Source: Candidatus Vogelbacteria bacterium (GTDB lineage: Bacteria > Patescibacteriota > Minisyncoccia > Phycocordibacterales > JACRKE01). From it: a stretch of 64,000 nt of DNA. How positions within the stretch are numbered: position 1 is the first letter of the stretch; the number at the start of each line of letters is the position of its first letter. Both the position numbers and the translations under genes were made by a program. The DNA lies in the NCBI GenBank assembly GCA_016215335.1, contig JACRKE010000037.1, forward strand, positions 2,924 through 66,923, given 5' to 3'. Under the pieces are notes generated by a model. The model did no database searches. It worked only from the letters and a program-made list of their open reading frames with translations, and was not told the origin of the DNA. This document shows, one piece after another, positions 2,170 to 63,520 of this stretch.

Positions 2170-2208
2170 CCCCTATATACGATATACTATTTACTATATA
2201 CTAATTCA
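2170..2208 (+). promoter_or_regulatory. conserved upstream motif CCCCTATATAC-N9-TTTACTATATACTAATTCA abutting the comM ATG
   Basis: Near-identical blocks precede pilB (rc of 49981-50020), yidC (rc of 37429-37497), yebC (rc of 46759-46800) and the 60773 ORF (60735-60772); the TATACT -10-like hexamer ends 6-7 nt before the ATG. Confidence 0.55.
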
Positions 2209-6977: not shown

Positions 6978-6987
6978 TACGCGCAAA

Positions 6988-7016
6988 CTAAAACAGGCCC
7001 AGTTGGGCCTGTTTTA
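6988..7016. terminator. bidirectional intrinsic terminator between convergent genes
   Basis: aaacaggccc-agtt-gggcctgttt, 10-bp stem with an A-run before and a T-run after. Confidence 0.6.
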
Positions 7017-7032
7017 GTTCGCGGAATTAACG

Positions 7033-18332: not shown

Positions 18333-20378
18333 ATGAACAACTTATCAACAACTAATTCTAACTTGAATGAGGCTCAGCAATCAGCTGCTAATCATAAAGA
18401 CGGGCCGCTTCTCATAATCGCGGGTGCTGGCGCAGGTAAAACCAAAACCATAGCCCATCGAATAGAGAATCTCGTGGCAGGAGGCATCCTTCCTCATAAA
18501 ATTCTAGCCGTAACCTTCACAAACAAAGCAGCAAAAGAGATGCGGGAACGGATTGAGAGATTACTCTCAGAGTCCAGAGGCAGGAACCAAGAGGTAAGAG
18601 CTGATACGGGCCCCACCACAACCTACAACCTACAACCTACAACCTTTCCGTTCGTTGCCACCTTCCACGGTCTCGGCGTTCAGATTATAAAAGAAAACGC
18701 GGGAATCTTCGGAACCACCAAATATTTCACTATTTTAGACAAAAGCGAGACCCTCTCACTCATTAAAAAAGCCCTAAAAGACAAGGGCTTTGATCCAAAA
18801 ATTGAGTCACCGGGGAGACTCCAAAACTTCATTTCAGGACAAAAGAACAAGCTTGTTTCGTATGTAGATTTCAAGAAACTCGAGCCCGAAAGCTATTTCT
18901 ATGAAGTAGCTGAAAAAGTGTGGGGGAGGTATGAACAGTCTCTGAATGAGCAAAAGTCGTTCGACTTTGACGACTTGATTTTGAAGCCAGTTCGTCTCTT
19001 TCGAGAGCATCCGGACATTCTCGAGCGCTATCAAGATCGCTGGACCTATATTCACATTGACGAATACCAAGACACCAACAAAGCGCAATATGAACTATCA
19101 CGGCTTCTTTCAGACAAACACAAAAACATTTGTGTCGTTGGAGACGCTGATCAAAGTGTGTACGGATGGAGGGGTGCAGACTTTAAAAATATTTTAGATT
19201 TCGAAGAAAACTTTCCGAATTCGACCGTAGTTTTACTTGAAGAAAATTATCGCTCTACCAAAATTATTCTCGACACCGCGAATGAGATAATAAAGAAGAA
19301 CAAACTGCGTAAAGAGAAAAATCTGTTCACACGGAAAACCGGTGGAGAAAAAATCTCTGTTTATGAAGCATTCGACGAAGCGGATGAAGCAAGAAATATT
19401 GCAAAAAACATCGATACTATTTTGAAATCAGGAGTAAAGCTGGAGGAGATTGCCGTTTTGTATCGTGCCAACTTTCAATCACGTGCAATCGAAGAAGCGC
19501 TTCTTTTGCGCGGAGTTCAGTATCAAGTGCTTGGTACGAAATTTTATGACAGAAAGGAGATCAAAGATACGATTGCGTTCGTGCGTGCGTCGATGAACGA
19601 AAAAGATTACGCGTCATGGGAAAGGATTATAAATGTGCCAGCCCGCGGAATAGGGGATGTAACATTCAATAAAATTATTTCGGGGAGACTCGCGGAATTA
19701 CCGCAAAAAATGCAAGAAAAAGTCAGAGATTTTGAAAGACAACTAGTACACTTTAGAGATTTTTTACTTGTAGATAAACTCTCCGAATCCATTAAAAAAA
19801 TTATACGAGAAAGTGGTATGGAAAAGATGTACACCGAAGGGTCAGAGGAAGATGAAGAACGCCTCGAAAACCTCAAAGAACTAGTTACCATAGCCACAAA
19901 ATACGATCTGTTTCCACCGGAAGAGGCTGTGGAACGGTTTCTCACCGATACCGGACTTATGTCGGATCAAGACAGTCTGAAGGAGCGAGGAGGGGGCGTA
20001 AAACTCATGACGATTCACGCGTCGAAGGGCCTAGAATTTCGACATGTTTTTGTTACAGGGCTTGAACAAGGTTTATTCCCGCACGAGCGTCTTGAAAGCT
20101 CGAGGTCAATGGAAGAAGAGAACGAGGAAGAGCGTAGACTTTTTTATGTTGCAGTTACGCGTGCAAAAGAAAAGTTGCACTTGTCGTACGCAATATGTCG
20201 AACAATTTTCGGAAACAGACGAACCAATTTACCATCAGAATATCTGGGAGATATTAGCGAGGACGTAATTGATTTAACAAGTGCAATGGGGAATAGCAGT
20301 GGTAGGCAGTACATGTATAGTGATCCAGAGGCAGGAGATGATGTTATACAGTGGGGATGTCTTGGGGGAGGAAAGTAG
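18333..20378 (+). CDS. uvrD: UvrD/PcrA-type SF1 DNA helicase
   Basis: Walker A AGAGAGKTKT, motif Ia ATFHGLG, UvrD-family motifs through VTRAKEKL; carries an in-frame CTACAAC heptamer array (TTYNLQPTT). Confidence 0.85.
   Translation: MNNLSTTNSNLNEAQQSAANHKDGPLLIIAGAGAGKTKTIAHRIENLVAGGILPHKILAVTFTNKAAKEMRERIERLLSESRGRNQEVRADTGPTTTYNLQPTTFPFVATFHGLGVQIIKENAGIFGTTKYFTILDKSETLSLIKKALKDKGFDPKIESPGRLQNFISGQKNKLVSYVDFKKLEPESYFYEVAEKVWGRYEQSLNEQKSFDFDDLILKPVRLFREHPDILERYQDRWTYIHIDEYQDTNKAQYELSRLLSDKHKNICVVGDADQSVYGWRGADFKNILDFEENFPNSTVVLLEENYRSTKIILDTANEIIKKNKLRKEKNLFTRKTGGEKISVYEAFDEADEARNIAKNIDTILKSGVKLEEIAVLYRANFQSRAIEEALLLRGVQYQVLGTKFYDRKEIKDTIAFVRASMNEKDYASWERIINVPARGIGDVTFNKIISGRLAELPQKMQEKVRDFERQLVHFRDFLLVDKLSESIKKIIRESGMEKMYTEGSEEDEERLENLKELVTIATKYDLFPPEEAVERFLTDTGLMSDQDSLKERGGGVKLMTIHASKGLEFRHVFVTGLEQGLFPHERLESSRSMEEENEEERRLFYVAVTRAKEKLHLSYAICRTIFGNRRTNLPSEYLGDISEDVIDLTSAMGNSSGRQYMYSDPEAGDDVIQWGCLGGGK
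18617..18646. repeat. CTACAAC/ACAACCT heptamer array (4 units) in frame within uvrD
   Basis: accacaacctacaacctacaacctacaacct encodes TTYNLQPTT. Confidence 0.8.
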
Positions 20379-20428
20379 TTAGTAGTTGGTAGATAGCCAC
20401 CGCATTTTGCGGGGCCCCGCCAGAGGCG

Positions 20429-21394
20429 ATGGTAGCTAGCATGAAATACAAAAAAACAAAACTGAATGATGGGCCCCAACCAGCTACTAACCACCGACTA
20501 CTAACTACGCATCCAAAACGCTCCCTAGGGCAAAATTTTTTAACTTCAGAAGCGGCTGTCGCGAAAATTGTTGCTGCGGGCGAAATCAAATCAGATGACA
20601 CTGTTCTTGAGATCGGTCCAGGGAGGGGAGTACTCACAAAAAAACTTCTATCCCTTGCTAGAAAAGTAATAGCGGTCGAAAAAGACGACGAGCTATTTGA
20701 ACTACTCCAAAATAAATTTGCCAAAGAAATCGAAACAGGAAGGTTGCAACTTGTGCATGAGGACATCTTGAAATTTGATGAATCTAACTACAACCTACTA
20801 ACTACAACCTACAACCTAATTTCAAACATTCCATACAACATTACAGGTGCGATCCTCCGTAAATTCTTAACATCAGAACACCAACCATCAACAATGGTTC
20901 TGCTCGTACAAAAAGAGGTGGCGGAAAGAATCGTTGCGCGTGACGGAAAAGAGAGTTTACTCTCCGTAAGTGTGAAGGTCTATGGAAATCCGCAATATAT
21001 AGCTACAGTTAAGGCCGGCAGCTTCTTCCCAGCTCCAAAAGTGGACTCGGCGATAATAAAAATAAGTGACATTTCCCGCGACTTTTTCACCCACATGGAA
21101 ACCGAGCTTCAAAATAAAATAACGTCTAAGAATAACGATTTTACAGAGGGTTCCCCTCTGTATGTGGATAAGTCTGACGTGGAAAGAGAGTTTTTTGAGT
21201 TTGTTTCGGCTGGGTTTGCTCACAAGCGCAAGCTTCTATCCCGGAATTTGGCAGGATATTTTGGAGACCAGGGAGAATGGCTTCAGGCGTGCACAATTGT
21301 AAAAATAAATCCCAAATCCAGGGCGGAAAACTTAAATATTGAAAATTGGAAAATACTCTTTAACTTATCCACAAAAAACCAGAAAAATCCTTAG
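20429..21394 (+). CDS. rsmA: 16S rRNA (adenine1518/1519-N6)-dimethyltransferase RsmA/KsgA
   Basis: SLGQNFL, SAM-binding motif LEIGPGRGVLT, NIPYNIT motif; in-frame heptamer-repeat insert (YNLLTTTYNL) and extended C-terminus. Confidence 0.8.
   Translation: MVASMKYKKTKLNDGPQPATNHRLLTTHPKRSLGQNFLTSEAAVAKIVAAGEIKSDDTVLEIGPGRGVLTKKLLSLARKVIAVEKDDELFELLQNKFAKEIETGRLQLVHEDILKFDESNYNLLTTTYNLISNIPYNITGAILRKFLTSEHQPSTMVLLVQKEVAERIVARDGKESLLSVSVKVYGNPQYIATVKAGSFFPAPKVDSAIIKISDISRDFFTHMETELQNKITSKNNDFTEGSPLYVDKSDVEREFFEFVSAGFAHKRKLLSRNLAGYFGDQGEWLQACTIVKINPKSRAENLNIENWKILFNLSTKNQKNP
20784..20818. repeat. CTAACTA/CAACCTA heptamer array (5 units) in frame within rsmA
   Basis: ctaactacaacctactaactacaacctacaaccta encodes NYNLLTTTYNL; related degenerate copies at 20379-20396 and 20477-20510. 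Confidence 0.8.
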
Positions 21395-28366: not shown

Positions 28367-28975
28367 ATGCAAAACTTAAACATAAACGACTACTCAAGTA
28401 GACTGACCAATCTTCCACCAAAACTGAAGCAGGCGATTTTGTCTGCCGATACACAATCGGCCATCGAAAACATTCACCAAAAGTACAAGCTTCATATTGA
28501 CAAACTAGGGAACCTTGAAGACATTACTCTCGATGTGCTGTACGGGGTGATAAAGCCCCAGGAGTATGTAGACAAGCTGGAATCAACACTTGGGATTGAT
28601 CGGGCTACAGCGGCGGGAATAACGGTCGACATGAACAACTCCCTCTTCCAGCCACTTCGAGACTCACTCATGGAGATTGGCACACCGAGTAATCACGTTG
28701 AATCTGATAGGACTTCCATTTTAAATGAAATACAGAATCCCACACCCACACCCATATCCGGAAGAGTAGTAATTGATTCAATGGGGGAGCCTGAAATTAG
28801 TGCGGCCCAGAGTCAAGAGTTAGGAGTTAGGAGCCAAGAATTAGAATCCGAATCCCAACTACCAACTACTGAACCCAAAGCATTCAACTCTATAGCGGAG
28901 GAGAAGCTTGCAGGCCCAGTAGTGGCAGAAAAAATAGAGACAAGGGTTGATCCGTATTTGGAAGCGCTGAATTAG
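28367..28975 (+). CDS. hypothetical protein
   Basis: 202-aa ORF inside the T4SS-like cluster; its stop codon TAG is the first unit of a TAGGTTG heptamer array. Confidence 0.3.
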   Translation: MQNLNINDYSSRLTNLPPKLKQAILSADTQSAIENIHQKYKLHIDKLGNLEDITLDVLYGVIKPQEYVDKLESTLGIDRATAAGITVDMNNSLFQPLRDSLMEIGTPSNHVESDRTSILNEIQNPTPTPISGRVVIDSMGEPEISAAQSQELGVRSQELESESQLPTTEPKAFNSIAEEKLAGPVVAEKIETRVDPYLEALN

Positions 28976-29003
28976 GTTGTAGGTGGTAGGTTATAGGTTG
29001 TAG
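28972..29003. repeat. TAGGTTG heptamer array (reverse complement of CAACCTA), about 4.5 units
   Basis: Begins with the TAG stop of 28367..28975. Confidence 0.8.
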
Positions 29004-30227: not shown

Positions 30228-32084
30228 ATGGCACTATTCGGATTCTTGGGCAAAAAAAATACAGAGAGCGAAAAAGCAAGCGAGCCGACGACCGCGCCTA
30301 TTCTCCCGCAGCAGATTTATGAGGCGGGCCTGCTTGATCTTAAAGACGTCATCGCTCCTTCCGCTCTCAAAATCACGCCTCAAGAGCTCAATTTGGGAGA
30401 GAAAATCGCCAGAACATTTTTCGTAATTTCATACCCGAGGTTTCTTTCTGAAAATTGGTTCTCGCCAATTATCAACTTAGACAAAATTTTCGACGTATCC
30501 ATTCTGGTACACCCCATAGACACGGCTGATGTCTTGCACAAACTGCAGAAAAAGGTGGCGCAAGTGGAAAGCCAGATAGCCCTAAGAGCAGAGAAAGGTA
30601 TGGTCCGGGATCCTGTTCTTGATGTCGCCTTTCAAGACATCGAACAGTTGCGAGATCAGCTCCAGCAATCGAGAGAGCATATTTTCGATGTCGGTCTTTA
30701 CATCACAATTTACGCAGACACAATAGAAGAGCTAAACAAAACCGAGTCCGAGGTTAAATCTATCCTCGAGGCCAAATTAGTCTACATCAAGCCCGCGCTC
30801 TTCCAGCAAGAAGAAGGCTTCTCGACCGTAATGCCAATTGCAACCGACAAACTATCAGTAAACTCAAAGCTTAATTCATCACCGCTCTCAAGTCTTTTTC
30901 CATTCATCTCATTCGACTTGTCTTCTGATAAAGGTATTCTTTACGGCATCAACAGGCACAACTCGGGTCTTGTTTTATTTGACAGATTCTCTTTGGAGAA
31001 TTATAACTCGGTCGTATTCGCTAAGGCTGGATCGGGTAAGAGCTATCTCACAAAACTCGAGATTCTCCGCACACTAATGTTCGATACGGACGTCATTGTT
31101 ATAGATCCAGAGCGCGAGTACGAATACTTAGCCGAAGCTGCGGGTGGACGTTACTTTAACATTTCACTTACTTCAGAAAACCATATAAATCCGTTTGATC
31201 TACCTCCTGTGGGAGAAGGGGAAACTGCTGCTGACGTGCTTCGTTCAAACATTATTAACCTTGTTGGACTATTTCGTCTCATGCTTGGAGGGCTCACTCC
31301 GGAAGAAGATTCTATTATTGACTCTGCTGTTACTGAAACCTACGCCTTAAAAGACATCACTCCGGAAGCCGATTTCACAGGCAAAGAACCTCCGCTCCTT
31401 TCTGATATGGAACTTGTGCTTGCCGGCATGGAAGGAGGAGCGTCGCTCGCACAAAGAATGCTCAAGTATACTCAAGGTACGTGGGCGGGATTCATTAATC
31501 GCCCAACAAACGTAGACATCAACAAAAAGTTCGTAGTGTTTTCTATCCGCGATATGGAAGAAGAACTGAAGCCGGTCGCAATGTACATAGTCATGCACAA
31601 TATCTGGAACTCTGTGCGCAAAGAGCTGAAGAAGAGACTGCTTGTGGTGGACGAGGCGTGGTTTATGATGAAATCGCAAGATACCGCGTCCTTCCTATAC
31701 GGACTTGCCAAACGAGGCCGTAAATATTTCCTCGGGGTGGCTACGATCACCCAAGACGTGGAAGACTTCCTTAAATCTCCTTACGGAATTCCAATCATTA
31801 CGAACTCTTCTATTCAGGTGTTAATGAAGCAATCACCGGCATCCATTGATATTGTTCAGAAGACATTCAACCTGACAGAGGAGGAGAAATATCTGCTCCT
31901 TGAATCGGCGGTCGGAGAGGGGATCTTCTTCGCTGGGATGAAGCATGTGGCGATCAAAGTTATCGCGTCATACACCGAAGACCAGATCATTACGTCGGAC
32001 CCATCACAACTCCTGTCGATAAGAAAAGCGAAAGCTGAGTTGAAGATGGTGGAGGGTGAAGTCGGGCAGGGAACCGTAAATTAG
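30228..32084 (+). CDS. VirB4/TrbE/CagE-like type IV secretion ATPase (C-terminal ATPase part)
   Basis: Walker A AKAGSGKSYLTK, Walker B LLVVDEAWFMM, conserved VirB4 C-terminal motifs (GVATITQDVEDF). Confidence 0.75.
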   Translation: MALFGFLGKKNTESEKASEPTTAPILPQQIYEAGLLDLKDVIAPSALKITPQELNLGEKIARTFFVISYPRFLSENWFSPIINLDKIFDVSILVHPIDTADVLHKLQKKVAQVESQIALRAEKGMVRDPVLDVAFQDIEQLRDQLQQSREHIFDVGLYITIYADTIEELNKTESEVKSILEAKLVYIKPALFQQEEGFSTVMPIATDKLSVNSKLNSSPLSSLFPFISFDLSSDKGILYGINRHNSGLVLFDRFSLENYNSVVFAKAGSGKSYLTKLEILRTLMFDTDVIVIDPEREYEYLAEAAGGRYFNISLTSENHINPFDLPPVGEGETAADVLRSNIINLVGLFRLMLGGLTPEEDSIIDSAVTETYALKDITPEADFTGKEPPLLSDMELVLAGMEGGASLAQRMLKYTQGTWAGFINRPTNVDINKKFVVFSIRDMEEELKPVAMYIVMHNIWNSVRKELKKRLLVVDEAWFMMKSQDTASFLYGLAKRGRKYFLGVATITQDVEDFLKSPYGIPIITNSSIQVLMKQSPASIDIVQKTFNLTEEEKYLLLESAVGEGIFFAGMKHVAIKVIASYTEDQIITSDPSQLLSIRKAKAELKMVEGEVGQGTVN

Positions 32085-32110
32085 GGGGACAGAAAATACA
32101 CATTGGAAAC

Positions 32111-32168
32111 TTGAAACTGGAAGTTAGAAACTGGAATGGTACATTATTCAAGTTTCCATATTCCAGTT
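32111..32168 (+). repeat. cassette-boundary repeat copy A (AAACTGGAAGTTAGAAACTGGAATGGTACATTATTCAAG)
   Basis: ~40-nt unit sharing ~85% identity with copy B; lies 27 nt after the VirB4 stop. Confidence 0.7.
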
Positions 32169-32188
32169 ACCAGATTCTAAACAAAAAA

Positions 32189-32626
32189 ATGGCGAGCCAA
32201 GAGTCCGTAAAACTAGAGAAAAGAATCGAGGTCAGGTGGCCTCTTGTTTTCCTCGCCGCAATTATTTTCGATGGGATAAAGCTTTTACTGCTCGCCCTAG
32301 ATTTGATCGGCTTGCTTGGAGCGGGGTCAGCGGTGAACAGTATTTTGAGCTCAATTTCGGGCTGGATTATTTGGACTCTTTTGAAGTCGGGAGGCGCTCC
32401 AAATCCATGGAAAGATATCCAGAGTTCATTCATTTCAGGCATAATCCCGTTCTGGCACTACATAGGCCAATCGTGGATTGTGAGAAGCGCAAGGCTTCTC
32501 AAGAAATACAAGAAAATGAATGCCGAGTTTGATAAAAAGCGAGCGGAAGAGCTGAACAATCTTATAGCAGAGATAAACAGAGAATCTGCAGAAGCCTTGA
32601 GTTCACCTGAACCCCAAATAGCATAA
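32189..32626 (+). CDS. small membrane protein
   Basis: First ATG (MASQESVKLEK...). The upstream part of track ORF 32111.. is a TTG-initiated read-through of a repeat element. Two TM helices, then a charged C-terminus. Confidence 0.4.
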   Translation: MASQESVKLEKRIEVRWPLVFLAAIIFDGIKLLLLALDLIGLLGAGSAVNSILSSISGWIIWTLLKSGGAPNPWKDIQSSFISGIIPFWHYIGQSWIVRSARLLKKYKKMNAEFDKKRAEELNNLIAEINRESAEALSSPEPQIA

Positions 32627-37428: not shown

Positions 37429-37497
37429 GAGCTAATTAGTATATAGTAAGACCAATCAGTATATAGTATATAGTATATAGTATATAGTATATAGGGG
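37429..37497 (-). promoter_or_regulatory. same upstream motif before yidC, containing a (GTATATA)x5 tandem expansion
   Basis: rc reads TCTCCCCTATATAC(TATATAC)x4...TACTATATACTAATTAGCTC-ATG. Confidence 0.5.
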
Positions 37498-45225: not shown

Positions 45226-45270
45226 TTAACCTAAACAAAAATGGCCCAGAGATAGCCATTTTTGTTTAGG
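45226..45270. terminator. bidirectional terminator hairpin between tyrS and the acidic small ORF
   Basis: aacctaaacaaaaatggc-ccagagata-gccatttttgtttaggtt, 18-bp perfect stem. Confidence 0.6.
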
Positions 45271-45537
45271 TTAGTCAGATTCTTCGTCGTCTATGTCTTC
45301 TTCAAAATAGTCAGTGGGTTCGTCGTTTCGATCTATGCCGTATTTACCCTTGGGCAGGCCGTCGGCTTCTTCGTCGTCATCGAGGACTTCGTCATCTGGC
45401 AGTTCAACCGGACGCTCAACTGCATCGATGCCACCTTCATCTAACTCAACGGGTTCTGCTGCTGGTTTCACCGAATCAGCCTCCTCGTCACCTGAATTAA
45501 TTTTCTTCTTCTTGTCTTCTTTCTTTGCCATATGCAA
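45271..45537 (-). CDS. small highly acidic protein
   Basis: 88 aa (MAKKEDKKKK..., D/E-rich). Preferred over the overlapping plus-strand ORF 45314..45601 because of its clean ATG start and compositional coherence. Confidence 0.3.
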   Translation of the reverse strand: MHMAKKEDKKKKINSGDEEADSVKPAAEPVELDEGGIDAVERPVELPDDEVLDDDEEADGLPKGKYGIDRNDEPTDYFEEDIDDEESD

Positions 45538-45641: not shown

Positions 45642-46163
45642 TTATACAAATCTAGACTGAGCCAAACACGTCAGACCAACCGCGATCGCGTCGTACTCGT
45701 CATCATGTTTGATTTGCTTTTCTATTTTAAGAAGTTTGTGGAGCATGTCGGTAACTTGTTTTTTGTCCGCTCTGCCGTAACTCGCGACTGCCAGCTTAAC
45801 TTCATTTGGCGCGAACTCTTTAAAGGTTAGACCATTGGAACTTGCAATATAAGTAACCATGCCTTTGACCTCGGCGACATTGAGAGCTGTCTTCTGGTTT
45901 GCCGCGAAAAAAAGTTTCTCAATCGCGAGTACATTTGGCTTCCATTTTTTTATAACTTTCTCAAGTTCTCGGCCTAATAATAAAAGTCGTTCGTTGAATT
46001 CAATTTTTGGAGTGATTACACAGTCGGAGTAGAGGAGTGAATCTTTTTGGGCTATTCGTTCAAGTACGGCAATCCCCATACGCTCGTAGCCGGGGTCCAC
46101 TGCCAAAACCCGGAGGGTTTTGGGTGAGTGAGTAGTTTGTAGTGAGTAGTTCCTAGTGAGCAC
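45642..46163 (-). CDS. ruvC: Holliday junction resolvase RuvC
   Basis: LAVDPGYERMGIAVLE catalytic-Asp N-terminus and RuvC-like remainder. The annotated N-terminal ~19 aa translate the heptamer repeat array, so the real start is probably the TTG near 46106 (MAVDPGY...). Confidence 0.8.
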   Translation of the reverse strand: MLTRNYSLQTTHSPKTLRVLAVDPGYERMGIAVLERIAQKDSLLYSDCVITPKIEFNERLLLLGRELEKVIKKWKPNVLAIEKLFFAANQKTALNVAEVKGMVTYIASSNGLTFKEFAPNEVKLAVASYGRADKKQVTDMLHKLLKIEKQIKHDDEYDAIAVGLTCLAQSRFV

Positions 46164-46216
46164 GGACTTATTCTACAACCTACAACCTACAACCTACAAC
46201 CTACAACCTACAACCC
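46129..46216. repeat. heptamer tandem array: (NNNTAGT)x4 followed by (CTACAAC)x6
   Basis: Directly visible; lies in the yebC-ruvC spacer and the annotated ruvC 5' end. Confidence 0.85.
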
Positions 46217-46224
46217 GTCTTGGT

Positions 46225-46758
46225 CTATTCTGCCGCACTATGCCAAACGTCCTCAATATCCTCGTGTTCTTCGAGGAGATCCAAAAGTTCTCCAAGTTTT
46301 TCACCGTCTTCAGGCGAGAGAGGTAGTGGCGAGTTTGGCACCCATTCACCTCCGACTTTTGTAAATGCCCATGTGGTCGAACCCGAACCACCGAGCGAGC
46401 CTCCGTGTTCACTAAGCAGATGCTTTATTTCCGCATTTGTTCGATTTTTGCTGTCTGTGATACCGGTGATAATAATAGCGACACCTCCGGGTCCGTAAGC
46501 TTCGTACATTACTTCGGTTATTGATTCGCTTCCGGCACCCATGCCTTTCTGTATGGCGCGTTCGATATTGTCGTTTGGGAAATTAGACGCTTTCGCTTTT
46601 TCAATTACAGCACGAAGGCGAGGTGAGTTCCTATCGCCTTTTGCAGCTTTCGATTCCATGGCAATCTGTTTTGCAAAAACCGAAAAGATTTTGCTCTTTT
46701 TGGCGTCCTCGGCACCCTTCTTGTGCTTGATCTTTGACCATTTATTGTGACCTGACAT
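46225..46758 (-). CDS. yebC: YebC/PmpR-family transcriptional regulator (short)
   Basis: Characteristic N-terminus MSGHNKWSKIKHKKGAEDAKKSKIF; 177 aa versus ~240 typical. Confidence 0.75.
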   Translation of the reverse strand: MSGHNKWSKIKHKKGAEDAKKSKIFSVFAKQIAMESKAAKGDRNSPRLRAVIEKAKASNFPNDNIERAIQKGMGAGSESITEVMYEAYGPGGVAIIITGITDSKNRTNAEIKHLLSEHGGSLGGSGSTTWAFTKVGGEWVPNSPLPLSPEDGEKLGELLDLLEEHEDIEDVWHSAAE

Positions 46759-46874
46759 GGTTTGTATATGGTATATAGTACATAGTATATAGGAAAACTC
46801 AATATTTTATTCAGCGAGGATTAATGGGTTGGAGTTCACTATATACTATGTACAATTTACTATATACTTTCCCC

Positions 46875-57729: not shown

Positions 57730-58179
57730 ATGGCAAGACAAGTTATAACCAAAAGCCTAAAGGAAACACATGATGTGGCTCGCGGGTTTTACTCGTGGCT
57801 TACGCAACAACCGAATGGGTCCGGTACTGGGCATATTGTGTGTCTCAGGGGTGATCTTGGTGCTGGCAAAACGTCATTCACCCAGGGTCTCGCTCTGGCC
57901 ATGGGGGTAGAAGATAATATCACAAGCCCTACGTTTGTGCTCATGAAAAAATACAAAGGCCTTAACGAGAAAAATTTAGTTCACTTCGATGTGTATAGGC
58001 TTGAGAATTCAAAAGATCTCGAGCCTCTTCGATTTGAAGAATATGTCGGAAACTTGAACAATATAGTTGTTGTAGAATGGCCGGAGAAGATTGGCGAAGC
58101 ATTACCGGCACACGCGCATACAGTGCTTTTTAAATTTATAGATGAAAATACCAGAGAGATAACCTTGCCCTATGAGTGA
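57730..58179 (+). CDS. tsaE: tRNA threonylcarbamoyladenosine biosynthesis protein TsaE
   Basis: P-loop GDLGAGKTSF and PTFVLM motif typical of YjeE/TsaE; first ATG downstream of the terminator hairpin. Confidence 0.7.
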   Translation: MARQVITKSLKETHDVARGFYSWLTQQPNGSGTGHIVCLRGDLGAGKTSFTQGLALAMGVEDNITSPTFVLMKKYKGLNEKNLVHFDVYRLENSKDLEPLRFEEYVGNLNNIVVVEWPEKIGEALPAHAHTVLFKFIDENTREITLPYE

Positions 58180-60688
58180 CCAAAGAAAAAAAATAGTTCT
58201 TCTTGATACTCACGCGATTCTTCATCGCGCATACCATGCCCTGCCGGATTTTGCGAGCGACAAGGGAGAACCGACTGGTGCGCTCTATGGCTTAACGGTT
58301 TTGCTTCTAAAACTTATCAAAGAATTTCGGCCGGAGATAATCGTGGCATGTTACGATCTGCCGAAACTTACTTTTAGACACGCAAAGTTTGCTGAATATA
58401 AAGCTGGTAGAGCACAAGTCGAGGATAACTTAATTTCCCAAATTAGGCGTTCGAGCCAGCTTTTCGAGGCGTTTGGAATTCCTATCGTGGCGGCGCCAGG
58501 TTTTGAGGCAGATGACATGCTAGGAACCATTGTAGAAAAGTTGAAAGGTAATAGGAGTTATCAAATTATTATTGCGTCGGGAGACATGGACACTCTCCAG
58601 CTCGTGACAGACGATAATGTGGTTGTATATACTCTGAAAAAAGGTATCAACGACACAATAATTTATGACGAGAAAGGGGTAAAAGCCCGCTTCGGTTTTG
58701 GGCCTGAACTTTTGCCTGATTATAAGGGGCTTCGTGGAGATCCGACTGACAATATACCGGGGGTGAAAGGCATAGGGGAGAAGACTGCAACGGAACTCAT
58801 CCTGAAGTTTGGCACGATCGAGAAAATGTACGAAACATTAGAAAAGCACAAAACACAAACCGTACAAAAACCAAACAAAACACAAAACTCAAAAAACAAA
58901 AGTTCGTCAAAAAACCAAAACGAATTCGGATTGTCACCGAGGATTTTGGATTTATTACTTGCGAACAAAGAAGAGGCTGAATTTTCAAAAATGCTTGGTA
59001 CCATCAGACGCGATGCGCCAATTGATTTTTCGCTAGAGCTGAGTAACTTCAAAGATAATTTCAAAATTGAAACAGCCAAAAAGTTTTTAGGCGAACTATC
59101 ATTTAGAAGCTTAGTTCCGCGACTCAATGAGGTTGCGACCGGAGAAGTTAAGAAACCGCAGATGTCGACAAAACCTAATCATGGAAGCGAGCTCTCTGTT
59201 GACTGGGCAGAAAGCCCTGCGAATGCAATAGATGCTGTTGTCCGAGGCGAGACCTCGGACATGCCGATTGTTGACGTAAATTCTCAGCAGTTCAAACGTT
59301 CGGCTATTATGTATTGGCTTATTGATTCCAGTAAGACCGATCCGACAGGACAACAGATATTTGAATATACCAAAACTAACAATCTTGAAGACGCGGAAAA
59401 TTTTTTATTAAAAAAAATTAAAATCGACAAGCTCGAAGATGTGTATAAGGAAATCGAGCTTCCACTTATTCCCATTCTTGAACGAGTAAAAGAACACGGA
59501 ATGCTCGTGGATGTAGGGTATCTGAAAGAGCTCTCAGATAAATATCATATAGTTTTAAGCCAACTTGAAAAAGATATTTGGGAACTTGCGGGAGGCGAGT
59601 TTAATATTAATTCTCCAAAACAACTTGGGGAAATCATTTTCGATAAACTCGGACTGGGTGGTAAGAAAGTGAAGAAAACCGCAACAGGAAACGCTTCGAC
59701 CAAAGTGGAAGAATTGGAGAAGCTAAAAGGCACTCATCCTATTATTGAAAAGATCATGGATTATCGAGAATACCAAAAGTTACTCTCAACCTATATTGAC
59801 TCTATACCGGAACAACTCGGCAAGGATGGCAGACTCCACTCAGATTTGATTCAGACTGGTGCCGCAACGGGTAGAATGTCGTCTCACAATCCAAATCTTC
59901 AAAATATTCCCATTAAAACTGAACTAGGCAGGGTAATTAGGAAGGCATTTGTTGCGAGCCTCGGATTTGTGCTCGCCGCCTTCGACTACTCGCAAATTGA
60001 TCTACGCATGGCGGCACTGCTCTCTAGGGATCCGCTGTTTATAAAAATATTTCAAGGCAAGAATGATGTACATACGAGTGTGGCGTCTCTTGTATTTAAA
60101 GTTGCACCAGAGAAAGTGGATCGTGAGATGCGAAGACGGGCTAAAGTAATAAACTTCGGAATATTGTACGGTATGGGAGTGAATGCGCTTAAACAAAATT
60201 TAGGCACAGAGAGAAAGGAAGCCGAAGAGTTTTACAAAATGTATTTTGAACAGTTCCATGGGCTTCGAGAATATCTTGATTCTCTAAAAGAGTTTGCCAG
60301 AAAAAACGGCTACACCACAACCTTTTTTGGCCGCAGGAGATACTATCCAAAAATTAAATCCCCGATGCCTTTCGTCCGAAGTATGGAAGAACGTATGGCT
60401 ATGAACGCGCCAATACAAGGCACCTCTGCCGACGTGATTAAACTTGCCATGAGCAAGGCGGATGAAGAACTTAAAAAAGCGGGCATTGAAACTAAAGTTT
60501 TTCCACTGCTTCAGGTGCACGATGAACTAATATATGAAATAAAAAAGGGTGTAGAGAAAGAAGCTACTAAAATAATAATTAAAGCAATGGAAAGCGTGCT
60601 CGACGGGCCGGTACCACTCGAAGTACATGCATCTTTAGGCAAGGATTGGGGAACTCTCGTTGGTACTAATATAGTATATTGTACATAG
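58172..60688 (+). CDS. polA: DNA polymerase I (5'-3' exonuclease + family A polymerase)
   Basis: 5'-nuclease motifs (LLDTHAILHRAYHA, GDPTDNIPGV); polymerase motif A (DYSQIDLRMAA), motif B (RRRAKVINFGILYGMG), motif C (LQVHDELIYE); low-complexity K/N/Q/S insert between domains; overlaps tsaE by 8 nt. Confidence 0.85.
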   Translation: MSDQRKKIVLLDTHAILHRAYHALPDFASDKGEPTGALYGLTVLLLKLIKEFRPEIIVACYDLPKLTFRHAKFAEYKAGRAQVEDNLISQIRRSSQLFEAFGIPIVAAPGFEADDMLGTIVEKLKGNRSYQIIIASGDMDTLQLVTDDNVVVYTLKKGINDTIIYDEKGVKARFGFGPELLPDYKGLRGDPTDNIPGVKGIGEKTATELILKFGTIEKMYETLEKHKTQTVQKPNKTQNSKNKSSSKNQNEFGLSPRILDLLLANKEEAEFSKMLGTIRRDAPIDFSLELSNFKDNFKIETAKKFLGELSFRSLVPRLNEVATGEVKKPQMSTKPNHGSELSVDWAESPANAIDAVVRGETSDMPIVDVNSQQFKRSAIMYWLIDSSKTDPTGQQIFEYTKTNNLEDAENFLLKKIKIDKLEDVYKEIELPLIPILERVKEHGMLVDVGYLKELSDKYHIVLSQLEKDIWELAGGEFNINSPKQLGEIIFDKLGLGGKKVKKTATGNASTKVEELEKLKGTHPIIEKIMDYREYQKLLSTYIDSIPEQLGKDGRLHSDLIQTGAATGRMSSHNPNLQNIPIKTELGRVIRKAFVASLGFVLAAFDYSQIDLRMAALLSRDPLFIKIFQGKNDVHTSVASLVFKVAPEKVDREMRRRAKVINFGILYGMGVNALKQNLGTERKEAEEFYKMYFEQFHGLREYLDSLKEFARKNGYTTTFFGRRRYYPKIKSPMPFVRSMEERMAMNAPIQGTSADVIKLAMSKADEELKKAGIETKVFPLLQVHDELIYEIKKGVEKEATKIIIKAMESVLDGPVPLEVHASLGKDWGTLVGTNIVYCT

Positions 60689-60734
60689 TATATAGGGATG
60701 AAAACCTTGTAGCTCTCGAAATAATCTTAAATTT

Positions 60735-60772
60735 ACCTATATACAATTTACTATTTACCATATACTAACCCG
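60735..60772 (+). promoter_or_regulatory. same upstream motif before ORF 60773
   Basis: TACCTATATACAATTTACTATTTACCATATACTAACCCG-ATG; an oppositely oriented degenerate copy overlaps the polA 3' end at 60668-60702. Confidence 0.45.
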
Positions 60773-63465: not shown

Positions 63466-63502
63466 CCCATCTACTTGGAAGCTCGGCTTCCAAGTAGATG
63501 GG
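63466..63502. repeat. REP-like palindrome copy (CCCATCTACTTGGAAGC-TCGG-CTTCCAAGTAGATGGG)
   Basis: 16-bp perfect stem, 13 nt downstream of the transposase stop. Confidence 0.8.
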
Positions 63503-63520
63503 TATAGGAGTTTTAACAAT

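What the first reader, a model, noticed from the sequence alone, without database searches (positions are those of the whole stretch)
46129..46216. CTACAAC-family heptanucleotide tandem arrays in intergenic spacers and in frame inside uvrD and rsmA
Arrays of the 7-mer CTACAAC (rotations ACAACCT / CAACCTA; reverse complement TAGGTTG) occur at:
- 46171-46216 (6 perfect units before ruvC, preceded by 4 units of NNNTAGT)
- 18617-18646 (inside uvrD, encoding TTYNLQPTT)
- 20784-20818 (inside rsmA, encoding NYNLLTTTYNL)
- 20379-20396 and 20477-20510 (uvrD-rsmA junction)
- 28972-29003 (starting with a stop codon)

A 7-nt unit is not a multiple of 3, so a single-unit slippage inside uvrD or rsmA would frameshift these housekeeping genes. 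In spacers it would change promoter/start spacing.

The annotated ruvC N-terminus is simply a translation of the array.

Possible interpretations: slipped-strand (contingency-like) loci, protein-binding iterons, or remnants of a small mobile repeat.
Basis: seen in the sequence. Interest (0 to 1): 0.65.

Follow-up and report, generated by a model that had tools for sequence, protein, structure and literature searches.

The report
Seven-base tandem repeats in Vogelbacteria genes
The CTACAAC arrays are real and belong to the long-known but unexplained class of 7-base tandem repeats; in this tiny-genome (Patescibacteria) bacterium they sit at gene junctions and, read in frame, inside loops of housekeeping proteins, and nothing seen here suggests they work as genetic switches.

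Summary
Observation confirmed. 46173-46215 is 6.1 perfect CTACAAC units. Related arrays lie in uvrD, in rsmA, at the uvrD/rsmA junction and at the stop of ORF 28367-28975: 11 matches against 0.01 expected.

They are heptanucleotide simple-sequence repeats of the STRR/LSSR kind known from Cyanobacteria, Bacteroidetes and Beggiatoaceae, here in a Candidatus Vogelbacteria MAG.

- **Period:** 7 is specifically favoured in the window, in 846 kb of other array-bearing genomes and in 408 kb of rsmA loci.
- **Unit:** CTACAAC is not special; composition-matched heptamers are equally common, and flanks are not conserved.
- **rsmA:** the "insert" is not an insert. The segment has the modal orthologue length.
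- **Hot spots:** the rsmA loop (9 of 82 loci) and the uvrD loop (4 of 32) recurrently carry heptamer arrays with different units, always in frame.
- **Junctions:** the arrays form inverted pairs. A TAG-rich arm follows the upstream stop, then the start codon, then a stop-free arm translated as an N-terminal extension.

Best reading: slippage or template-switch products filtered by selection. A contingency switch, iterons and a mobile element are not supported, but read-level variation could not be tested. New member of a known kind; moderate interest.

The parts
46173..46215 (-). Perfect heptamer array: CTACAAC x6.1 on the + strand, (GTTGTAG)6 in the sense of the ruvB-yebC-ruvC operon. It lies in the spacer, 10 nt after the yebC stop and 10 nt before the annotated ruvC GTG. 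In this orientation TAG occurs in all three frames.
46127..46160 (-). Degenerate CTAC-NNN arm (CTCACTA GGAACTA CTCACTA CAAACTA CTCAC in sense). It is an imperfect reverse complement of the upstream array and is translated as the 16-residue N-terminal extension of the annotated RuvC (LTRNYSLQTTHSPKTL).
45642..46163 (-). ruvC, 173 aa from GTG 46163. The RuvC profile starts at residue 18-19. The codon where the canonical Met would be is CTC, so the array-coded extension is probably real.
46225..46758 (-). yebC (short form, 177 aa), the upstream gene of the junction.
18618..18645 (+). CTACAAC x4.0, perfect, in frame in uvrD. It encodes PTTTYNLQPTT in the loop between helicase motif Ia (TFTNKAA) and TFH. 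That loop is 48 aa here against a mode of 36.
18333..20378 (+). uvrD/pcrA helicase gene (681 aa).
20374..20396 (+). TAG-rich arm (AGTAGTT AGTAGTT GGTAGAT AG) overlapping the uvrD stop codon. It is the 5' arm of the inverted repeat.
20479..20510 (+). Stop-free CTAC arm (CTACTAA type). It is 86% complementary over 22 nt to 20375-20396 and is translated as the rsmA N-terminal extension (PQPATNHRLLTTH), which is predicted disordered.
20784..20818 (+). CTAACTA/CTACAAC array in frame in rsmA, encoding NYNLLTTTYNL. This is the beta3-beta4 connector plus the start of strand beta4 before the NIPY motif. It is also 86% complementary to 20375-20396.
20429..21394 (+). rsmA/ksgA (321 aa).
28973..29003 (+). 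TAGGTTG x4.4 (83%), the reverse complement of the CTACAAC family. Its first TAG is the stop codon of ORF 28367-28975. It lies 74 nt upstream of the PrgI-like gene, with a TAGTATAAT box in between.
28817..28869 (+). Two short heptamer arrays (GAGTTAG x2.4 and CCAACTA x2.1) translated in the low-complexity C-terminal tail of ORF 28367-28975.

Best explanation
These are heptanucleotide simple-sequence repeats of the kind called STRRs in cyanobacteria and long SSRs more generally.

**Origin (inferred).** I think they arise and turn over through a replication error process that favours a 7-nt register. That process would be slipped-strand mispairing, plus short template switches between nearby direct or inverted copies.

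**Filtering (shown as a pattern).** Selection then decides where the arrays survive in a gene-dense Patescibacteria genome. There are two kinds of place.
- *Gene junctions.* Here they occur as inverted pairs. The arm that has TAG in all three frames sits in the spacer, at or just after the upstream stop codon. The stop-free arm (CTAC-NNN) has been absorbed into the downstream gene as a disordered N-terminal extension. The start codon has moved into the region between the arms.
- *Tolerant protein loops.* Here the arrays occur only in the stop-free orientation and only in frame. They are translated as TTYNLQP-type peptides.

**rsmA.** In rsmA, units of the form CTAY-NNN are the ones that reproduce the conserved Y-x-L of the loop and strand. 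This explains why this unit recurs at that site.

**Consequence (inferred).** The arrays are mostly neutral passengers that remodel loops and junctions. They are not switches.

Shown: existence, period specificity, hot spots, orientation and frame, absence of conserved flanks, and the non-special status of the unit. Inferred: the slippage or template-switch mechanism and the neutrality.
For: - **Period 7 is specifically favoured in three data sets.**
  - In the window, perfect arrays occur only at periods 7 and 4, and there are many other period-7 units.
  - In 846 kb from 118 other genomes' loci there are 67 further period-7 arrays, against at most 10 for any other period from 4 to 15.
  - In 408 kb of rsmA loci there are 21 period-7 arrays, against 0-6 for other periods.
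- **The unit is not special.**
  - (CTACAAC)3 occurs in many phyla.
  - In viral contigs, composition-matched heptamers are equally frequent (31, 11 and 16 stretches against 14), while a period-8 variant gives 1.
- **No element around the arrays.** Information content in the flanks is 0.2 bit or less. Singleton copies of the heptamer are at most 2-fold over expectation.
- **Hot spots with unit turnover.**
  - 9 of 82 rsmA loci have a perfect heptamer array in the ~90 nt before the NIPY codon, a density of 0.91 per kb against 0-0.14 per kb in the other bins (mostly 0.05 or less); at least 8 different units occur there.
  - 4 of 32 uvrD loops carry such an array.
  - No other period occurs at either site.
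- **Frame is kept.** All of these arrays are in frame, and 5 of 9 rsmA-loop arrays keep the modal loop length.
- **The same unit recurs at the same rsmA site.** CTACAAC is found there in the window, L023 and L122, although these proteins are only about 50-55% identical.
- **Inverted pairs.**
  - 20375-20396 is complementary to 20487-20508 and to 20784-20805.
  - The uvrD|rsmA junction folds with z = -6.1.
  - L398 has the same stop / TAG arm / ATG / stop-free arm layout at yebC|ruvC with a different unit, z = -4.6.
- **The closest relative lacks the arrays.** L400 has a plain TAATG stop-start overlap at yebC|ruvC.
- **Structure model.** The N-terminal extension is disordered (pLDDT below 50), while the loop array is folded as a short helix, a loop and strand beta4.
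- **Literature.** Heptanucleotide repeats are the most abundant long-SSR class in many prokaryotes and were attributed to slippage. TAACTGA repeats show the same stop-in-all-frames orientation logic and 7-nt indels between strains (PMC4679880; PMC4692102).
Against: - No direct evidence of slippage exists here. There are no reads, and no second strain of this species is in the databases (UvrD cluster size 1, nearest relative 68% identical).
- Two samples of the L398 species have identical copy numbers, but they are 100% identical over 3.5 kb and so say little.
- The same unit family at 4-6 unlinked sites within 64 kb is not expected from independent local slippage. It needs either ectopic copying or selection for the sequence.
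- Arrays that overwrite the rsmA loop without changing its length are awkward for simple unit gain and loss.
- Strong hairpins that bracket start codons could reflect function rather than mechanism.
- Why the period is 7 remains unexplained.
Confidence: 0.6

Rival explanations
1. Functional junction hairpins. The inverted heptamer-array pairs would be selected RNA (or DNA) structures at operon junctions. They enclose the downstream start codon. A ribosome terminating on the upstream stop, which lies in or next to the 5' arm, would melt the stem and so couple or tune translation of rsmA to uvrD and of ruvC to yebC. This would matter in an organism with little Shine-Dalgarno signal.
For: - The uvrD|rsmA junction folds with a 16-bp stem, z = -6.1, 0 of 200 shuffles as good, with the rsmA ATG inside.
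- L398 has the same layout at yebC|ruvC with a different unit (TAGATGG/CCATCTA), z = -4.6, with the ATG in the apical loop. Both arms differ together, which resembles covariation.
- In L023 the spacer arm (GTTGTAG) matches that genome's own rsmA-loop array.
- The 5' arm starts at or within 10 nt of the upstream stop in all four cases.
- The relative without arrays uses a TAATG overlap, that is, direct coupling.
Against: - The main array of the finding folds only weakly with its partner (z = -1.4, 17 of 200 shuffles as good).
- The 28973 array has no convincing partner (z = -0.5).
- L023's spacer alone does not fold.
- Inverted copies are also the expected product of template switching.
- Only 2 of 6 relatives examined have arrays at yebC|ruvC.
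- In other phyla the orientation in co-directional spacers is not biased: 14 against 8.
Confidence: 0.2
2. Contingency (phase-variation) loci. Gain or loss of a single 7-nt unit would reversibly frameshift uvrD or rsmA, or change ruvC expression. This would give, for example, a switchable mutator or recombination state.
For: - The unit length is not a multiple of 3.
- The arrays are perfect (28 nt in uvrD, 43 nt before ruvC).
- The affected genes are DNA-repair and recombination genes.
- 7-nt indels between strains are documented for other heptamer repeats (PMC4679880).
Against: - Copy numbers inside the genes are low.
- All 13 orthologous in-gene arrays read are in frame.
- No frameshifted homologue was seen.
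- The rsmA array encodes a structured, conserved Y-x-L strand.
- The same species sampled twice shows no difference (L398 = L399).
- The genes are not of the surface, restriction or virulence classes typical of contingency loci.
Confidence: 0.07
3. Small palindromic insertion elements. The junction pairs, and possibly the in-gene arrays, would be copies of a tiny non-autonomous mobile element built from heptamers. It would insert in frame into genes, like the Rickettsia palindromic elements.
For: - The pair at yebC|ruvC sits exactly where the closest relative has a TAATG overlap. It looks like one palindromic block inserted between the stop and the old start.
- Three copies of a ~22-nt block lie within 450 nt at uvrD/rsmA.
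- The arrays are translated in frame in housekeeping proteins in many genomes.
Against: - No conserved ends, no target-site duplication and no conserved flank in 122 arrays.
- Array phases and lengths are continuous, from 21 to 95 nt.
- The uvrD array has no inverted partner.
- Units differ from genome to genome at the same site.
Confidence: 0.1
4. Protein-binding iterons or operator arrays acting on DNA.
For: - Direct repeats of one sequence occur at several loci.
- Three units equal 21 bp, which is two helical turns.
Against: - There is no replication or partition gene context.
- The unit is 7 bp rather than 17-22 bp.
- Half of the arrays are inside coding sequence.
- Arrays occur on either strand.
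- Equally frequent arrays exist with unrelated units.
Confidence: 0.03

Closest known systems
STRR (short tandemly repeated repetitive) heptanucleotide sequences of heterocystous cyanobacteria (Calothrix, Anabaena, Nostoc), and the heptanucleotide class of long simple sequence repeats (Mrazek et al. 2007, as cited in PMC4679880 and PMC4692102)
   Same: - 7-nt unit in perfect head-to-tail arrays of 3 to about 10 copies.
- Several unit families per genome.
- Many dispersed loci, mostly between genes.
- A strong excess of period 7 over neighbouring periods.
- No known function.
   Different: - The lineage is Patescibacteria (Candidatus Vogelbacteria), for which I found no report.
- The unit sequence differs.
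- A large share of the arrays is translated in frame inside housekeeping genes.
TAACTGA heptamer direct repeats of Beggiatoaceae, Cyanobacteria and Bacteroidetes (MacGregor 2015, PMC4679880)
   Same: - One orientation has stops in all three frames, so it is confined to spacers and often overlaps the upstream stop codon.
- The other orientation is found inside ORFs at the protein periphery.
- The arrays sit close to start codons where Shine-Dalgarno sites are lacking.
- The phylogenetic distribution is patchy and crosses phyla.
- Assemblies break at the arrays.
   Different: - Here the unit is not uniquely favoured: control heptamers are equally common.
- The arrays form inverted pairs that bracket start codons.
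- Orthologous protein loops are recurrent hot spots with changing units.
GGGAATC / GGGGA(T/C)T heptameric repeats of Xanthomonas and Nostoc (Rehm et al. 2015, PMC4692102)
   Same: - Intergenic heptamer arrays, some arranged as inverted pairs able to form hairpins.
- Length and sequence vary between related genomes at the same intergenic site.
   Different: - Those units are G-rich and form quadruplexes.
- The present units are A/C-rich (or G/T-rich on the other strand) and have no G-runs.
Contingency loci: simple-sequence phase variation in Haemophilus, Neisseria and Campylobacter
   Same: A tandem repeat whose unit is not a multiple of three lies inside an ORF or between a stop and a start, so a one-unit slip would shift the frame or change the spacing.
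   Different: - Classic loci have 1-5 nt units in long tracts.
- They sit in surface, restriction-modification or virulence genes.
- ON and OFF alleles are both seen in populations.
- Here the arrays are short, the genes are housekeeping genes, and only in-frame alleles are seen across relatives.
Rickettsia palindromic elements (RPE; from my own knowledge, not checked with a tool)
   Same: Repeated DNA is tolerated in frame inside conserved housekeeping proteins. It is translated into surface or terminal peptide segments and recurs in many genes.
   Different: - RPEs are 100-150 bp elements with a conserved consensus.
- The present arrays have no consensus beyond the 7-nt unit and no defined ends.

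Membership tests
Heptanucleotide tandem repeats (STRR / long SSR class) | Unit of exactly 7 nt repeated head to tail, at least 3 copies, high identity | tested here: met
   6.1 and 4.0 perfect units, plus 4.4 units at 83%.
Heptanucleotide tandem repeats (STRR / long SSR class) | Same unit family at several dispersed loci of one genome, beyond chance | tested here: met
   Four main loci plus variants in 64 kb; 11 matches against 0.01 expected.
Heptanucleotide tandem repeats (STRR / long SSR class) | Genome-level excess of period 7 over neighbouring periods | tested here: met
   Shown in the window, in 846 kb of array-bearing loci (67 against at most 10) and in 408 kb of rsmA loci (21 against 0-6). 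The whole genome was not available.
Heptanucleotide tandem repeats (STRR / long SSR class) | Predominantly intergenic location | tested here: inconclusive
   In the window roughly half of the CTAC-family arrays are translated. Elsewhere 26 of 131 lie deep inside ORFs.
Heptanucleotide tandem repeats (STRR / long SSR class) | Copy number differs between strains in 7-nt steps | not testable with these tools
   No second strain is available. Logan contigs break inside the 43-nt array. Between species the arrays at the same site differ in length.
Contingency (phase-variable) locus | Repeat tract in an ORF or 5' region whose unit gain or loss changes frame or expression | tested here: met
   A 7-nt unit lies inside uvrD and rsmA and between the yebC stop and the ruvC start.
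Contingency (phase-variable) locus | ON and OFF length alleles coexist in populations or among strains | tested here: not met
   All 13 orthologous in-gene arrays are in frame. L398 and L399 are identical. Read-level data were not available, so this test is partial.
Contingency (phase-variable) locus | Gene class under fluctuating selection (surface, restriction-modification, virulence) | tested here: not met
   The genes are UvrD, RsmA and RuvC.
Iterons | Direct repeats of about 17-22 bp next to a replication initiator gene or origin | tested here: not met
   The unit is 7 bp, there is no rep or par gene nearby, and the arrays lie inside coding sequence.
Miniature mobile / palindromic element (REP, MITE, RPE-like) | Conserved consensus with defined ends, with or without a target-site duplication | tested here: not met
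   Flank information content is 0.2 bit or less in 122 arrays, and lengths are continuous from 21 to 95 nt.
Known RNA family | Match to an Rfam covariance model | tested here: not met
   Only a tRNA-Lys reaches the gathering score in the window.

The most novel reading that the evidence does not exclude
Patescibacteria would run a phylum-wide, period-7-specific template-switch process. It repeatedly rewrites the same protein loops (RsmA beta3-beta4, UvrD Ia-Ib) and the same operon junctions with heptamer arrays. At junctions the inverted arms would have been recruited as start-codon-bracketing hairpins that couple translation of neighbouring genes. The arrays would then be both a generator of protein-loop and N-terminus novelty and a regulatory device. 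The rsmA hot spot would give a natural system for finding out why bacteria favour 7-nt repeats.
Probability: 0.2. Interest if true: 0.65.

Novelty: new member of a known kind. Interest (0 to 1): 0.4.

Why it matters
Heptanucleotide tandem repeats have been known since 1990, and were known to be the commonest long SSR class since 2007. Neither the preference for 7 nt nor any function has been explained.

This window adds three things.
- The phenomenon extends to Patescibacteria, whose compact genomes force the arrays into coding sequence.
- Particular loops of universal proteins (RsmA, UvrD) are recurrent, unit-changing hot spots. This gives a comparative system for measuring array birth, homogenisation and decay.
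- Arrays at gene junctions come as inverted pairs that displace start codons and add N-terminal extensions. This matters for gene calling in MAGs, for example the 173-aa RuvC and the 321-aa RsmA. It could also matter for translational coupling.

It also warns that such arrays break short-k assemblies.

Tried and rejected
- **Rfam scan of the window:** only one tRNA.
- **RNA folding of the main array region and of the 28973 array:** not better than shuffles (z = -1.0, -0.5 and -1.4).
- **Promoter and terminator scan around ruvC:** nothing above the shuffle expectation.
- **A stop-in-all-frames backstop orientation as a general rule:** rejected. Co-directional spacers in other genomes split 14 against 8.
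- **CTACAAC as a specially favoured or horizontally spread unit:** rejected. Three composition-matched controls are equally frequent in viral contigs. The period-6 control was uninformative because it encodes poly-Thr.
- **A conserved flank or larger element:** none.
- **Enrichment of single CTACAAC copies as seeds:** at most 2-fold.
- **A second strain for copy-number comparison:** none.
  - The only other source (Logan SRR12113407) is 100% identical and breaks in the array.
  - UvrD has no relative above 68% identity.
- **RuvC N-terminal extensions in other relatives:** in L402 and L403 they are gene-call overlaps with yebC, not arrays, and L404 has none.
- **Upstream inverted partners of rsmA-loop arrays across 72 loci:** only a modest excess (10 of 72 against 13 of 400 with matches of at least 11 nt).
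- **Literature search for heptamer repeats in Patescibacteria:** nothing found.
Full report
**1. The observation**

The sequence at 46173-46215 is 6.1 perfect CTACAAC units. It is preceded at 46127-46160 by a 14-nt period x2.4, that is, degenerate heptamers.

The other listed sites are also real.
- 18618-18645: 4.0 perfect units.
- 20784-20818: 4.4 units at 83%.
- 20374-20396: AGTAGTT x3.3.
- 20479-20510: CTACTAA type.
- 28973-29003: TAGGTTG x4.4. Its first TAG is the stop of ORF 28367-28975.

A two-unit probe with at most 1 mismatch finds 11 sites against 0.01 expected. Among perfect arrays of at least 2.5 units, only periods 7 and 4 occur in the window. TRF also lists many period-7 arrays with other units: CTATATA, AGTATAT x5.3, TGGAAAC, GAGTTAG, AAAACAC and more.

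**2. Context**

The window comes from a Candidatus Vogelbacteria (Patescibacteria) MAG. UvrD and RuvC are 100% identical to NCBI proteins so named. A Logan assembly of SRR12113407 is identical to the window, and its contigs break inside the 43-nt array.

On the minus strand the genes run ruvB, yebC, ruvC. In operon sense the main array reads (GTTGTAG)6. It lies 10 nt after the yebC stop and 10 nt before the GTG that NCBI and Logan use as the ruvC start.

The RuvC profile begins at residue 18-19. In 101 of 119 homologues the catalytic Asp is residue 7. In the window the codon where the canonical Met would be is CTC. The 16-residue extension encoded by the degenerate array 46127-46160 is therefore probably genuine.

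**3. A period-7 phenomenon, not a CTACAAC phenomenon**

They come from Saprospiraceae, Flavobacterium, filamentous Cyanobacteria, many Patescibacteria, Planctomycetota, Gammaproteobacteria and others.

In those 846 kb there are 67 further perfect arrays of at least 3 units with period 7, against at most 10 for any other period from 4 to 15.

The flanks of 122 arrays carry no conserved sequence beyond a decaying array. In IMG/VR, three composition-matched stop-free heptamers are as frequent as CTACAAC (31, 11 and 16 stretches against 14). A period-8 variant gives 1. Single CTACAAC copies are at most 2-fold enriched in the window.

The published record describes the same class.
- Heptanucleotides are the most abundant long SSRs in many prokaryotes.
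- STRRs occur in Calothrix.
- TAACTGA repeats occur in Beggiatoaceae, Cyanobacteria and Bacteroidetes.
- GGGAATC repeats occur in Xanthomonas (PMC4679880; PMC4692102).

I found nothing linking such repeats to Patescibacteria.

**4. The arrays inside genes**

In sense orientation CTACAAC has no stop in any frame, while GTTGTAG has TAG in all three. This is why only the former is found in ORFs. The same logic was noted for TAACTGA.

*uvrD.* The loop between TFTNKAA and TFH has a modal length of 36 residues in 120 Parcubacteria homologues. It is 48 here. The closest relative (68% identity) has 50 residues with a degenerate CTACCAT array.

*rsmA.* The segment HEDILKFDESNYNLLTTTYNLISNIPY has the modal length, so it is not an insert. 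Many homologues read xYNLxxxxYKL(I/V)ANIPY.

At the DNA level, the same rsmA site looks like this in relatives.
- L122 carries a perfect (CTACAAC)3.5.
- L023 carries an expanded 33-residue version.
- L123 carries a TGAATTA array.

*Wider sampling.* A metagenome scan with an RsmA alignment gave 80 more loci.
- In 82 loci, 9 perfect period-7 arrays lie in the ~90 nt before the NIPY codon.
- Their density is 0.91 per kb, against 0-0.14 per kb in the other bins (mostly 0.05 or less).
- At least eight different units are involved, and 5 of the 9 keep the modal loop length.
- No other period occurs there.
- In 32 loci that include the uvrD loop, 4 carry a period-7 array and none carries another period. 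All four loops are longer than the mode.

Units of the form CTAY-NNN encode the conserved Y-x-L in the right frame. This accounts for CTACAAC, CTACCAC and CTACAGT at the rsmA site (read from the sequences).

*Structure.* An AlphaFold model (pLDDT 87) puts the rsmA loop array in a short helix, a loop and strand beta4. It leaves the array-coded N-terminal extension disordered (alignment to 6ifs).

*Other phyla.* Elsewhere, 26 of 131 CTACAAC arrays lie deep inside long ORFs and read ..LQPTTYN...

**5. The arrays at junctions are inverted pairs**

The arm 20375-20396, which overlaps the uvrD stop, is 86% complementary over 22 nt to two other arrays. One is 20487-20508, in the rsmA N-terminal extension. 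The other is 20784-20805, in the rsmA loop.

The junction folds at -53.5 kcal/mol with z = -6.1, and the rsmA ATG lies inside the fold. No in-frame start codon lies between the 3' arm and the conserved KRSLGQNFL motif, so that arm must be translated.

At yebC|ruvC the perfect (GTTGTAG)6 faces a degenerate CTAC-NNN arm. The pairing is weak (z = -1.4).

A related species (L398 = L399; RuvC 61% identical) has the same layout with another unit. The order is stop, (TAGNNTG)5, ATG, (CCATCTA)4, then the RuvC core, and it folds with z = -4.6.

The closest relative (L400/L401) has a plain TAATG overlap and no arrays. Three further relatives have none.

In other genomes the orientation of arrays in co-directional spacers is unbiased. 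Inverted CTACAAC pairs are nevertheless common: L018, L021, L043, L119, L127 and L132.

**6. Interpretation**

The simplest account is a 7-nt-biased slippage or template-switch process, with selection filtering its products. The TAG-rich orientation can survive only in spacers. The stop-free orientation can survive in disordered termini and tolerant loops, in frame.

Short template switches between nearby copies would explain three things.
- The inverted and direct 22-nt copies within 450 nt at uvrD/rsmA.
- The way a spacer arm tracks its own genome's loop array (window and L023).
- The overwriting of the rsmA loop without a change in length.

This part is inference. No reads or sister strains were available.

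The main rival is that the junction hairpins are selected for translational coupling. That is compatible with the data, but it is not needed for the array the finding centres on.

A contingency switch, iterons and a discrete mobile element each fail at least one defining feature (see the membership table).

**7. Verdict**

The finding is real and far beyond chance, and it belongs to a known but unexplained class. It is a new member in a lineage where it had not been reported.

Two further descriptive points are of moderate interest.
- Conserved protein loops are recurrent heptamer hot spots.
- Inverted arrays at junctions displace start codons.

Noticed in passing
window 2173-2203, 37458-37494, 46764-46792 / 46839-46867, 60669-60695 / 60731-60767: A second heptamer family built on TATA (AGTATAT x5.3 perfect, GTATATA, ACTATAT, CTATATA, ATATAGT). 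It lies in spacers a few to about 30 nt upstream of start codons, for example those of yebC and gene 60773. The ruvB-yebC pair is a 29-nt inverted repeat folding with z = -5.6. The units contain -10-like TATACT/TATAGT boxes every 7 nt, so they could be promoters of short-leader or leaderless mRNAs.
   Followed up: partly
window 46104-46124: A perfect 9-bp stem with a 3-nt loop (CCAAAACCC GGA GGGTTTTGG) lies exactly over the position where the canonical RuvC start would be (the ...TLRVLAVDPG region).
   Followed up: no
window 46225-46758 (-); L398, L400, L402, L404: YebC is a short form (176-191 aa against about 240). It matches only profile positions 1-138 of the YebC/PmpR models, and this is conserved in the relatives. 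The synteny ruvB-yebC-ruvC-small ORF-tyrS(-) is also conserved. L404 has a PemK toxin gene inserted between yebC and ruvC.
   Followed up: partly
window 20429-21394 (RsmA residues ~228-250): RsmA is 321 aa against about 262 in relatives. Besides the array-coded N-terminal extension it has a roughly 25-residue low-confidence insertion (pLDDT ~66) in the C-terminal domain that is not heptamer-periodic.
   Followed up: no
L027 2285-2318 and L078 4647-4675; L017 3166-3199 and L106 565-598: In unrelated genomes, CTACAAC arrays sit at the same position of homologous genes. One case is a glycosyltransferase, just before the ..PY(I/F)LFIGR.. motif. The other is a LeuRS-like gene, between ..YRFLQRVW.. 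and ..HKTIKKVTE... This suggests further protein-loop hot spots.
   Followed up: no
L001 end (window 46187) and L317 start (window 46201): The Logan (k=31) contigs of SRR12113407 end inside the 43-nt array from both sides. The copy number given in the MAG cannot be confirmed from that assembly.
   Followed up: yes
window 32104-32177 and 58843-58901: Further period-7/14 arrays. TGGAAAC/TAGAAAC and a 14-mer lie at the junction of genes 30228-32084 and 32111-32626. An A-rich AAAACAC array (8.6 copies, 71%) lies inside gene 58172-60688.
   Followed up: no
L122 2200-2330; L123 3270-3300 and 5340-5375: AT-rich Parcubacteria carry AT-rich heptamer families (TTTTCAA / GAAAATT inverted arrays in the uvrD-rsmA spacer; AAATTAG in UvrD; TGAATTA in RsmA). 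The preferred units appear to follow genome composition.
   Followed up: partly
window 6985-7020, 45228-45272, 63466-63505: GC-rich perfect palindromes flanked by A- and T-runs lie between genes. They look like ordinary bidirectional intrinsic terminators unrelated to the heptamers.
   Followed up: no
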